DNA from: a virus
Direction: 5' to 3' (one strand)
IMG/VR virus record: IMGVR_UViG_3300027907_000002
Location: 6,752 to 70,751 of that record
DNA length: 64,000 nt
Part shown: in pieces, positions 21,154 through 21,334 of the stretch
Layout: each line of letters opens with the position of its first letter
Numbering within the stretch: the stretch's first letter is position 1
The notes under the pieces: generated by a model
What the model was told of the DNA's origin: nothing
What the model saw: only the letters and a program-made list of their open reading frames with translations
Database searches by the model: none
Program-made: the position numbers and the translations under genes

Positions 21154-21334
21154 GGCCACAGGCAGGATTCGAACCTGCATCTCACAAGAAAGAAACAGTG
21201 AGAAGAACGTCTCAACGACTGATCATCTTATTACTCTCAGGCTTATAGGCTAGCTCCACTCCTGAGCCACTGCTTACTTGCTAGCTTTCCTTTGAGGTCT
21301 TACCTTGGCTTATCCTTTAGAAACGACTGTGACC
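21154..21334 (-). ncRNA. tRNA-like RNA with a large insertion in place of the anticodon loop (tmRNA-like layout)
   Basis: GGTCACAG/CTGTGGCC acceptor, D-like arm, GCAGG-TTCGAAT-CCTGC T-arm; 181 nt. Confidence 0.65.

What the first reader, a model, noticed from the sequence alone, without database searches (positions are those of the whole stretch)
21154..21334. 181-nt tRNA-like RNA with tmRNA-like layout and a possible internal tag frame
Seen: acceptor GGTCACAG/CTGTGGCC (8 bp, like the G-1:C73 pair of tRNA-His), a D-like arm and a perfect T-arm. An extended helix CAAGG(T)AAGA/TCTTTCTTG replaces the anticodon stem and encloses roughly 100 nt. Inside, TAGCA is followed by AGT AAG CAG TGG CTC AGG AGT GGA GCT AGC CTA TAA (SKQWLRSGASL*), with the stop in the loop of hairpin CTCAGG/CCTGAG. 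Established: tmRNA has UAGNN before the resume codon and its stop in helix H5. It is about half normal tmRNA length and lacks G3:U70/A73. Inference: a minimal, non-Ala tmRNA analogue, or a tRNA scaffold carrying a cargo domain.
Basis: partly seen in the sequence, partly recalled or inferred. Interest (0 to 1): 0.7.

Follow-up and report, generated by a model that had tools for sequence, protein, structure and literature searches.

The report
Oversized tRNA-like RNA in a phage
A soil phage carries a conserved 181-base RNA with the two ends of a tRNA but a foreign middle; it is one of a dozen structured RNA cassettes packed around two real tRNA genes, and it is not a miniature tmRNA.

Summary
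The element is real. It lies on the minus strand, 21334 to 21154, in a 70.7-kb phage genome with terminal repeats. It has an 8-bp closing stem (G-1:C73 type) next to a perfect T-arm. Its about 145-nt interior has no anticodon arm.

The tmRNA reading fails:
- ARAGORN and the Rfam tmRNA models do not call it.
- It lacks the alanine identity pair.
- In a relative about 97% identical (soil run X6), a 1-nt deletion shifts the proposed tag frame.
An alternative rod helix survives, and an inner helix gains a G-C pair.

Removing any single insert does not give an ordinary tRNA more often than in shuffled controls.

The element is far better conserved than the small ORF that follows it (about 97% against 61%). 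It is missing as a block from another relative. It is one of at least 12 stem-closed cassettes, each starting exactly at the GG of a repeated TTAT|GG linker.

Best reading: a tRNA-derived noncoding RNA cassette, cut out by tRNA-processing enzymes. Its closest known analogue is T4 RNAC, and its function is unknown. It may be chargeable with histidine or act as a decoy.

The parts
21154..21334 (-). Whole element E12, 181 nt. RNA position i = 21335 minus the window coordinate.
   Evidence: Read. It is the only T-arm plus closing-stem hit in the window. In run X6 it has 5 substitutions and 1 deletion listed, against 31 differences in the 80 nt just downstream.
21327..21334 (-). 5' strand of the closing (acceptor-like) stem, GGUCACAG. 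Its first G would be G-1.
   Evidence: The helix starts exactly at the first G after TTAT. The X4 contig alignment stops exactly at 21334.
21154..21161 (-). 3' strand of the closing stem, CUGUGGCC. The last C is C73-like. It is followed by CUU and then the AUG of a 35-codon ORF.
21162..21178 (-). T-arm GCAGG-UUCGAAU-CCUGC: 5 bp with a consensus T-loop.
   Evidence: No difference is listed here in X6.
21297..21326 (-). 5' region (positions 9-38) with a weak D-like arm and a GG in its loop. Its structure is uncertain.
   Evidence: No fold forms the arm. Variant data near this end were not listed.
21181..21296 (-). Interior 'cargo' (positions 39-154). It comprises a rod helix (39-42 with 151-154, 44-50 with 143-149), a 9-nt bulge, an inner helix (60-67 with 135-142) and two hairpins (69-99 and 107-134).
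   Evidence: The MFE, the constrained fold and the two-sequence consensus agree. U140>C turns G62.U140 into G-C. U149>A with G150>U shifts the 1x1 internal loop of the rod but keeps the rod.
21243..21278 (-).
   Evidence: The frame is shifted in the X6 relative by loss of position 89, together with U88>C.
21335..21343 (-). 5' linker CCCUUUUAU, the upstream part of the repeated ...TTAT|GG motif.
   Evidence: Indel joints in X6 and X10 fall in this repeat.
21043..21150 (-). 35-codon hydrophobic ORF. It starts 3 nt after E12 and has no Shine-Dalgarno motif. It is replaced together with E12 in the X4 relative.

Best explanation
E12 is a functional, tRNA-derived noncoding RNA cassette. An acceptor/T-arm minihelix (8 + 5 bp, G-1:C73 type) closes a non-tRNA interior of about 145 nt: a long rod carrying a three-way junction.

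It is one unit of a hypervariable array of at least 12 stem-closed structured RNAs. The array also holds tRNA-Tyr, tRNA-Asn and several anticodon-less mini tRNA-likes, and it sits in the phage's leftward gene block.

Proposed mechanism (inferred, not shown):
1. The array is transcribed as one precursor.
2. Each cassette is released at the conserved UUAU|GG linker by the host tRNA 5'-processing enzyme RNase P, and at its 3' side by tRNA 3'-end enzymes.
3. CCA is added.
4. The tRNA-like handle gives correct ends and stability to the interior domain, which carries the still unknown activity.

E12 does not decode codons and is not a tmRNA.
For: Shown:
(1) The acceptor and T-arm are intact, and there is no anticodon arm.
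(2) Conservation in the X6 5.9-kb contig: 6 listed differences in 181 nt, against 31 in the next 80 nt (Fisher p = 5e-13). If all 7 unlisted differences are assigned to E12, p = 2e-9. Contigs from two further studies cover parts of E12 at about 97% identity: X10 covers 21200-21343 and X15 covers 21274-21542.
(3) The variant keeps the same fold with a better energy, -56.8 against -53.0 kcal/mol. One change makes G.U into G-C in the inner helix.
(4) Nine linker motifs were examined in 20280-22460. Eight are followed by a helix that begins exactly at the first G, with Watson-Crick score 6 or more (six with 7 or more). Random GG starts reach 6 in 16.7% and 7 in 6.3% of 1500 cases. The ninth motif is an ORF start.
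(5) Neighbouring cassettes fold significantly: z about -4 for four of the nine folded. One of them, E6, shows two compensatory base-pair changes against contig L084; these account for 4 of its 7 differences.
(6) Cassettes are gained, lost or swapped as blocks at the linkers in relatives.
(7) No intrinsic terminator and only one weak promoter-like site were found on this strand across the array.
(8) A second oversized tRNA-like cassette, 126 nt, has the same layout but an unrelated interior. It sits in relative L084.

From the literature: HisRS charges 13-bp minihelices that carry G-1:C73 (passages of PMC9976931).
Against: - No RNA data exist: no listed run holding the stretch is RNA. Transcription, processing and ends are therefore all inferred.
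- The fold of the whole element is not more stable than shuffles (z = -0.91).
- Structural support from variation is one G.U to G-C change only.
- Variant letters for the first about 21 RNA positions were not listed.
- High identity could reflect recent exchange of the cassette between phages rather than selection.
- No homologue was found outside this lineage.
- The linker could be a recombination or initiation signal rather than a processing site.
- No RNA-related protein family was found among 85 phage ORFs, so all enzymes would have to be the host's.
Confidence: 0.55

Rival explanations
1. Interrupted tRNA gene. The interior is an intron (or two) that is removed to give an ordinary decoding tRNA, for example tRNA-His.
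For: - The acceptor with G-1:C73 and the T-arm are tRNA-His-like (identity rules in PMC9976931).
- An inner D-arm-like GCUC-AGGAGUG-GAGC is picked up by the Rfam tRNA model at 19 bits, E = 1.4.
- A clear insert-bearing tRNA exists in another phage, L077.
- The phage's two real tRNAs (Asn, Tyr) belong to the same GUN-anticodon group as His.
Against: - Of 2970 single-deletion products, only 4 pass ARAGORN's default threshold and none pass at 105%.
- In the shuffled-interior controls, 12 of 30 give at least one hit and 8 of 30 give four or more.
- The positive example L077 gives 1225 of 3340 hits at the default threshold and 58 at 120%.
- No 5-bp/7-nt anticodon arm with U33 can be drawn.
- The only GUG in a loop-like context is lost in the X6 relative, G150>U.
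- About 100 nt is too short for a group I intron, and Rfam gives no intron hit.
- No RNA ligase or splicing endonuclease family was found in 85 ORFs.
Confidence: 0.07
2. Decaying relic. A phage tRNA gene was wrecked by an insertion and now has no function; its conservation is due to recent descent or exchange.
For: - The whole-molecule fold z is -0.91.
- There is no anticodon arm.
- Homologues are absent elsewhere.
- The element is dispensable in one relative, X4.
- The region is a hot spot of indels.
Against: - Identity is 97% beside 61% in the adjoining ORF on the same contig.
- All 13 pairs of the acceptor/T-arm stack are intact.
- The changes seen spare or improve the predicted helices.
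- Sister cassettes show compensatory changes.
- The same architecture recurs with a different interior in L084.
Confidence: 0.15
3. Mainly a cis-acting punctuation or stability element. The tRNA-like fold directs cleavage that frees and stabilises the downstream 35-codon mRNA as a nearly leaderless message, as tRNAs punctuate mitochondrial transcripts. The RNA itself has no role in trans.
For: - The AUG lies 3 nt after the closing stem and has no Shine-Dalgarno motif, whereas the neighbouring small ORFs have AGGAG-type sites.
- E12 and this ORF are replaced together in X4.
- Cassettes and small ORFs alternate along the array.
Against: - A 145-nt conserved interior is not needed for punctuation; a 52-54-nt mini tRNA-like would do.
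- The ORF evolves fast while E12 does not.
- Most cassettes are followed by another cassette, not by an ORF.
Confidence: 0.15
4. Minimal tmRNA analogue that is charged (with His) and adds the tag SKQWLRSGASL to stalled chains.
For: - The topology is the same as a tmRNA tRNA-like domain: acceptor, long helix, T-arm.
- A UAG lies shortly before an open 11-codon frame whose stop sits in a hairpin loop.
Against: - ARAGORN gives no tmRNA here, even at an 80% threshold. Its only call is a 749-nt artefact elsewhere.
- There is no Rfam tmRNA hit at E up to 10.
- There is no G3.U70 and no A73 (identity set in PMC9976931).
- The frame is shifted in a 97%-identical relative.
- No SmpB-like family was found in 85 ORFs.
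- The size is about half that of the smallest usual tmRNAs (recalled).
Confidence: 0.02

Closest known systems
Phage T4 RNAC (species 1 RNA, rnaC) and RNAD, the stable RNAs of the T4 tRNA cluster
   Same: - Both are encoded at the distal end of a phage tRNA gene cluster, on the tRNA strand.
- RNAC is 139 nt. It has a perfect T-arm (CCGGG-UUCGAAU-CCCGG) next to a terminal stem, and long internal hairpins in place of the D and anticodon arms.
- Its function is still unknown (passages of PMC3014915, and PMC9697503).
   Different: - There is no sequence similarity. A blastn search of 20800-22700 against 50,697 phage records found only tRNA matches.
- The RNAC terminal stem is imperfect, whereas E12's has 8 bp.
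- RNAC folds far better than shuffles (z = -4.6) and E12 does not (z = -0.9).
- T4 has two such RNAs; here there is an array of a dozen with a repeated linker.
tmRNA (SsrA)
   Same: Topology only: the acceptor and T-arm are joined by a long helix that encloses an internal domain.
   Different: - It is not recognised by the tmRNA models.
- It has no alanine identity.
- No pseudoknots were predicted.
- The frame is not conserved.
- It is about half the size.

Bacterial and phage Y RNAs (YrlA) with a tRNA-like module
   Same: These are noncoding RNAs that contain T-arm, D-arm and acceptor-like elements. M. smegmatis YrlA is cut by RNase P and receives CCA (passages of PMC4201824).
   Different: - YrlA genes lie within about 4 kb of a Ro60/TROVE gene and carry a GNCGAA-type motif (same passages).
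- No TROVE family was found among 85 ORFs here, and there is no Rfam hit.
- In YrlA the RNA ends lie in the Ro-binding stem, not in the acceptor-like stem (recalled).
Histidine-accepting tRNA-like structures of plant RNA viruses, and HisRS minihelix substrates
   Same: An N-1:N73 pair on a 13-bp acceptor/T stack is enough for HisRS charging, and viral tRNA-like structures do not decode (passages of PMC9976931). E12 has G-1:C73 on an 8 + 5 bp stack.
   Different: The plant elements are 3' ends of RNA genomes built with a pseudoknotted acceptor. E12 is a separate gene in a DNA phage. Charging of E12 is untested.
Engineered 'tRNA scaffold' for expressing recombinant RNA in E. coli
   Same: A foreign RNA replaces the anticodon arm of a tRNA. 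The tRNA body gives processing and nuclease resistance (recalled; only the listing and abstract start of PMC3753655 were seen).
   Different: That is a laboratory design. E12 would be a natural counterpart, and its 5' D-like region departs from a true tRNA body.

Membership tests
tmRNA | Recognised by tmRNA covariance models or ARAGORN | tested here: not met
   There is no call at 21154-21334, even at E up to 10 or an 80% threshold.
tmRNA | Alanine identity: G3.U70 with A73 | tested here: not met
   the 3:70 pair is C-G, the wobble is at 2:71, and the discriminator is C. The identity set is from PMC9976931.
tmRNA | Conserved tag reading frame | tested here: not met
   A 1-nt deletion and a substitution inside the frame occur in the X6 relative. 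Only one relative was informative.
tmRNA | Pseudoknots flanking the frame | tested here: inconclusive
   The folding tools used ignore pseudoknots. The only candidate seen by eye is a 6-nt GCUAGC/GCUAGC bulge-loop pairing.
tmRNA | Works with SmpB and tags stalled proteins | not testable with these tools
   No SmpB family was found among 85 phage ORFs. The host is unknown.
Canonical tRNA, including intron-bearing forms | Acceptor stem plus T-arm with a consensus T-loop | tested here: met
Canonical tRNA, including intron-bearing forms | Score above threshold with tRNA models | tested here: not met
   The Rfam tRNA model gives 19.0 bits against a gathering score of 29. ARAGORN at default settings makes no call.
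Canonical tRNA, including intron-bearing forms | Anticodon arm, directly or after removing one insert | tested here: not met
   4 of 2970 deletion products pass the default threshold and none pass at 105%. This is no better than the shuffled controls.
T4 RNAC-like stable RNAs of phage tRNA clusters (a descriptive class, not a curated family) | Lies in a phage tRNA cluster, has a T-arm plus terminal stem, is larger than a tRNA and has no anticodon arm | tested here: met
T4 RNAC-like stable RNAs of phage tRNA clusters (a descriptive class, not a curated family) | Sequence homology to T4 rnaC | tested here: not met
   there is no match to T4-type records. The match is to a class by layout only.
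T4 RNAC-like stable RNAs of phage tRNA clusters (a descriptive class, not a curated family) | Accumulates as a stable processed RNA | not testable with these tools
   No RNA run holding the stretch was listed.
YrlA / bacterial Y RNA | Encoded next to a Ro60 (TROVE) gene; matches the Y RNA model | tested here: not met
   Searches found no TROVE family in 85 ORFs. Searches gave no Rfam hit.
Group I intron in a tRNA gene | Catalytic core recognised by Rfam; length of about 200 nt or more | tested here: not met
   One search gave no intron family at E up to 10. The interior is about 100-145 nt.

The most novel reading that the evidence does not exclude
This soil phage lineage carries a new kind of locus: a hypervariable array of structured RNA cassettes. 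Each cassette starts at a UUAU|GG linker, and each would be shaped and released by the host's tRNA-processing machinery.

Within this array, E12 would be a natural tRNA scaffold. Its G-1:C73 minihelix would be CCA-tailed and charged with histidine, while its conserved interior acts in trans. For example, it could be a decoy or sponge for tRNA-directed host defences, or for translation factors. That would make it a DNA-phage counterpart of the histidine-accepting tRNA-like structures of plant viruses, and would give a first functional handle on the T4 RNAC class.
Probability: 0.15. Interest if true: 0.8.

Novelty: new variant of a known kind. Interest (0 to 1): 0.5.

Why it matters
Stable tRNA-like RNAs in phage tRNA clusters have been known since T4 RNAC and RNAD, and still have no assigned role (PMC3014915, PMC9697503).

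This locus has three useful features:
- many such RNAs side by side;
- a precise repeated linker that predicts their 5' ends;
- natural presence/absence variants.

Phage tRNA regions are now known to take part in the arms race with tRNA-cleaving defences (PMC13096335, passages). A chargeable, non-decoding tRNA mimic would therefore be a plausible new counter-defence tool. It would also be a natural precedent for tRNA-scaffold RNA expression.

If the cassettes turn out to be inert relics, the finding is ordinary.

Tried and rejected
- **Homologue searches.** All of these found nothing beyond the window's own record:
  - the exact T-arm/acceptor 25-mer in viral contigs;
  - a two-motif pattern (inner D-like arm, gap, T-loop) in metagenome contigs, viral contigs and genome contigs;
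  - a 22-mer in genome contigs;
  - blastn of 20800-22700 against phages, which gave only tRNA matches in 6 records.
- **Protein routes to relatives.**
  - The 456-aa protein gave none.
  - TerL gave only a 99%-identical 6.4-kb fragment, L003. The nearest cultured phages are Tunturiibacter phages at 30% identity.
  - The 188-aa neighbour has 338 homologues. The 80 viral loci fetched with it hold no E12-like element, and 42 of them scanned with ARAGORN mostly hold no tRNAs.
  - The closer relatives P0004 (83%) and P0005 (52%) are in Logan assemblies only, and the tool that fetches such contigs is closed.
- **Second metagenome scan.** A tRNA-Asn 24-mer gave one relative, L084. It ends at window 21688, before E12.
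- **RNA evidence.** No RNA holder was listed.
- **Antisense idea.** The best complementarity of E12 to the phage genome is 12 nt, E = 0.59. It was rejected for phage targets; host targets cannot be tested.
- **Low-threshold ARAGORN with introns.** It gave 13 mostly spurious calls in 2.5 kb. One is a 'tRNA-Arg' that uses another 5' strand of E12. It was not used.
- **Alignment of E12 with L084 cassette B.** Only the T-loop aligns.
- **Covariance model of E12.** The alignment was prepared (one search used wrong L001 coordinates). The model was not built, because only unrelated loci were on hand to search.
- **Literature.** Searches did not turn up a described family of this kind. This covers the held library only. 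Supplements are closed and were not consulted.

Full report
**What the window is.** The window is bases 6752-70751 of a 70,751-bp virus record with direct terminal repeats. Gene content is phage-like but very remote from known phages.
- Two proteins match the SU10 adaptor family.
- The large terminase is 30% identical to Tunturiibacter phages at best.
- Of 85 ORFs scanned against Pfam, only a handful match anything: MazG, JAB, ThiF, DNA polymerase A, UDG, lysozyme, GNAT and VWA.
- Runs that hold the region are soil, rhizosphere and one freshwater metagenome.

**The observation.** The finding lies on the minus strand. With RNA position i = 21335 minus the coordinate:
- Positions 1-8 (GGUCACAG) pair with 174-181 (CUGUGGCC), with one G.U.
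- Positions 157-173 form a perfect T-arm with the consensus loop UUCGAAU, directly stacked on that stem.
- No CCA is encoded. The same is true of the phage's tRNA-Asn and tRNA-Tyr.
- The D-like arm is weak and is not formed in any prediction.

The rod pairs 39-42 with 151-154 and 44-50 with 143-149. It continues, after a 9-nt bulge, into an inner helix (60-67 with 135-142) that carries two hairpins.

The whole fold is not more stable than shuffles (z = -0.91). A loose T-arm-plus-stem scan hits by chance in 19 of 100 simulated windows. The case for a real feature therefore rests on context and conservation rather than on the pairing alone.

**Detectors.**
- ARAGORN at default settings and Rfam at gathering scores call only tRNA-Asn (22199-22272) and tRNA-Tyr (22354-22432).
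- At E up to 10, the Rfam tRNA model touches the element at 19 bits. It uses an inner D-arm-like GCUC-AGGAGUG-GAGC and the T-arm.
- No tmRNA, intron, ribozyme or other family appears.
- ARAGORN's tmRNA mode at an 80% threshold gives only a 749-nt artefact elsewhere.

**Context: an array of cassettes.** Reading 20290-22450 on the minus strand shows that E12 is one of at least 12 units, each closed by a 6-13-bp terminal stem. Besides the two tRNAs there are:
- two 54-nt tRNA-likes with acceptor and T-arm but no anticodon arm (22064-22117 and about 20311-20364);
- a 58-nt minihelix-like unit that ends in an encoded ACCA (21829-21886);
- several multi-hairpin units, of which four of the nine folded reach z about -4.

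The motif TTATGG occurs 22 times on this strand of the 64-kb window, and 8 of these lie between 20630 and 21890. Nine linker motifs (TTATGG or AAGTTGG) were examined in 20280-22460.
- Eight are followed by a helix that begins exactly at the first G, with a Watson-Crick score of 6 or more. Six score 7 or more.
- Among 1500 random GG starts, 16.7% reach 6 and 6.3% reach 7.
- The ninth motif is the start codon of a 71-codon ORF.
- For the unit at 21539 the script picked another partner; the MFE closes it at 21434 with 5 + 4 bp.

No intrinsic terminator and only one weak promoter-like site were found on this strand across the array.

**Relatives.** No relative holding E12 could be fetched as sequence. 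Laying Logan contigs of four runs on 20700-22800 was informative.
- **X6.** A 5868-nt contig is collinear with the array. Its piece 21034-21343 has 43 differences and one gap.
  - 31 of the listed differences fall in 21067-21146, the small ORF after E12.
  - Only five substitutions and one deletion are listed inside E12.
  - Seven differences are unlisted and may lie near the piece ends, which include RNA positions 1-21.
  - This gives 96.7% identity for E12 (92.8% in the worst case) against 61% for the ORF stretch. The difference is significant in both cases.
- **X10 and X15.** Contigs cover 21200-21343 and 21274-21542 with 4 and 7 differences.
- **X4.** The alignment stops exactly at 21334 on one contig and at 21043 on another. 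E12 and the 35-codon ORF are replaced together. On the RNA strand the loose end reads as the linker followed directly by a different small ORF.
- **Other cassettes.** X6 and X10 skip 21344-21432 cleanly (the neighbouring 78-nt cassette plus its linker), and X6 skips 21541-21823.
- **L084.** This JGI contig, found with a tRNA-Asn 24-mer, is another relative. It ends before E12 and shows the same block-wise swapping.
  - It has a 52-nt mini tRNA-like.
  - It has a 126-nt oversized tRNA-like that starts at TTAT|GG and ends with a perfect T-arm and closing stem. Its interior is unrelated to E12.
  - It has two further large stem-closed units.
  - The shared cassette E6 differs at 7 positions, and 4 of these are two compensatory pair changes in a GUGA-capped hairpin.

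**What the E12 variant says**.
- U140>C turns G62.U140 into G-C in the inner helix.
In the rod these changes only shift a 1x1 internal loop.
- G119>A lies in a hairpin loop.
- U88>C and loss of A89 lie in the large loop of hairpin 69-99, inside the proposed tag frame. The in-frame UAA is lost and the frame runs on.
- The variant folds to the same architecture at -56.8 against -53.0 kcal/mol.
- G150>U also removes the only GUG that sits in an anticodon-loop-like context.

**Tests of the readings.**
- **tmRNA:** fails on model recognition, alanine identity and frame conservation (see the membership table).
- **Interrupted tRNA:** 4 of 2970 single-deletion products pass ARAGORN's default threshold and none pass at 105%. 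Controls with a shuffled interior do as well: 12 of 30 give at least one hit. A genuine insert-bearing tRNA from a jumbo phage gives 1225 of 3340 hits, and 58 at 120%.
- **Antisense regulator of phage genes:** no complementarity beyond 12 nt.
- **Relic:** hard to square with the conservation contrast and the intact 13-bp stack, but not excluded, since recent exchange of cassettes would also give high identity.

**Proposed mechanism.**
- Shown: the anatomy, the linker regularity, block-wise variation and strong conservation.
- Inferred: the array is one precursor. RNase P cuts at UUAU|GG, because every unit offers an acceptor-like helix starting at that G. E12's first G then becomes G-1, paired to C73. 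The 3' end is trimmed and CCA is added. The tRNA-like handle gives defined ends and stability to the interior.
- From the literature: HisRS charges 13-bp minihelices bearing G-1:C73, and plant viral tRNA-like structures are HisRS substrates for the same reason (PMC9976931, passages). Histidylation of E12 is therefore plausible but untested.
- Not known: what the interior does. A decoy or sponge role in the tRNA-centred arms race (PMC13096335, passages) is a guess.

**Comparison with known systems.** The closest match is T4 RNAC: 139 nt, a perfect T-arm beside a terminal stem, long internal hairpins, a position at the end of the tRNA cluster, and an unknown role. The likeness is of layout and place, not of sequence. 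YrlA-type Y RNAs share the tRNA-like module and RNase P/CCA processing but need a Ro60 neighbour, which is absent here.

**Limits.**
- There are no RNA data.
- Only one informative variant of E12 was seen, and its first about 21 positions are unseen.
- The host is unknown.
- The fold was predicted without pseudoknots.
- Literature searches cover the held library only, and supplements are closed.

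Noticed in passing
window 20290-22450, minus strand: An array of at least 12 stem-closed structured RNA cassettes, interleaved with four tiny ORFs (35, 58, 71 and 74 codons). They are joined by repeated linkers, ...CCCUUU(U)AU|GG or CAAGUU|GG, and each closing stem starts exactly at the G after the linker. Cassettes are gained, lost or swapped as blocks in relatives.
   Followed up: partly
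window 22064-22117 and about 20311-20364, minus strand; L084:2490-2541: Three 52-54-nt 'mini tRNA-likes'. Each has a 7-bp acceptor stem, a linker or hairpin of about 21 nt and a T-arm, but no anticodon arm. The one at about 20311-20364 lies inside the upstream part of an ORF that ORF-listing runs at 142 aa; database members of that protein are 110 aa.
   Followed up: partly
window 21829-21886 and 20733-20797, minus strand: Two cassettes whose closing stem is followed by an encoded NCCA (ACCA and GCCA), like a tRNA 3' end. The first also has a T-arm-like hairpin with a UUCAAAC... loop.
   Followed up: no
window 21964-22061 (minus) against L084:2676-2773: Cassette E6 differs at 7 positions between relatives. 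Four of these are two compensatory base-pair changes in a GUGA-capped hairpin, which is direct evidence that these cassettes are selected as RNA structures.
   Followed up: yes
L084:2548-2673: A second oversized tRNA-like cassette (126 nt) in a relative. It starts at TTAT|GG, has a 7-bp closing stem and a perfect T-arm, and its interior is unrelated to E12.
   Followed up: partly
L077:3005-3194 (424-kb jumbo phage contig, in its tRNA cluster): A tRNA-Ile(GAU)-like gene is interrupted by an insert of about 115 nt in the D-loop region. Many deletion products score as strong tRNAs, with 58 passing at 120% of ARAGORN's threshold. ARAGORN's default run does not call it. This is a possible non-canonical tRNA intron in a phage.
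   Followed up: partly
window 22354-22432, minus strand: The phage tRNA-Tyr(GUA) has a short, atypical variable arm and scores only 31 bits with the Rfam tRNA model. Phage tRNA-Tyr variants with altered variable loops are reported to escape tRNA-Tyr-cleaving defences (PMC13096335, passages).
   Followed up: no
window 21043-21150, minus strand: A 35-codon hydrophobic ORF starts 3 nt after E12 with no Shine-Dalgarno motif. It is only about 61% identical in the X6 relative and is replaced by a different small ORF in X4. It may be translated from a nearly leaderless message made by processing.
   Followed up: no
window 23589-24155, minus strand: A 188-aa protein of unknown function has 338 homologues in metagenomes and phages (PHROG 11912). 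Its conserved residues include His and Asp positions and a C-terminal ...FFSCSC motif.
   Followed up: no
window 13364-15011, minus strand: A JAB-domain protein lies at 13364-14344. A ThiF-family hit also appears among the 57 ORFs scanned, but which ORF carries it was not determined. Together they suggest a ubiquitin-like conjugation or deconjugation pair in the phage.
   Followed up: no
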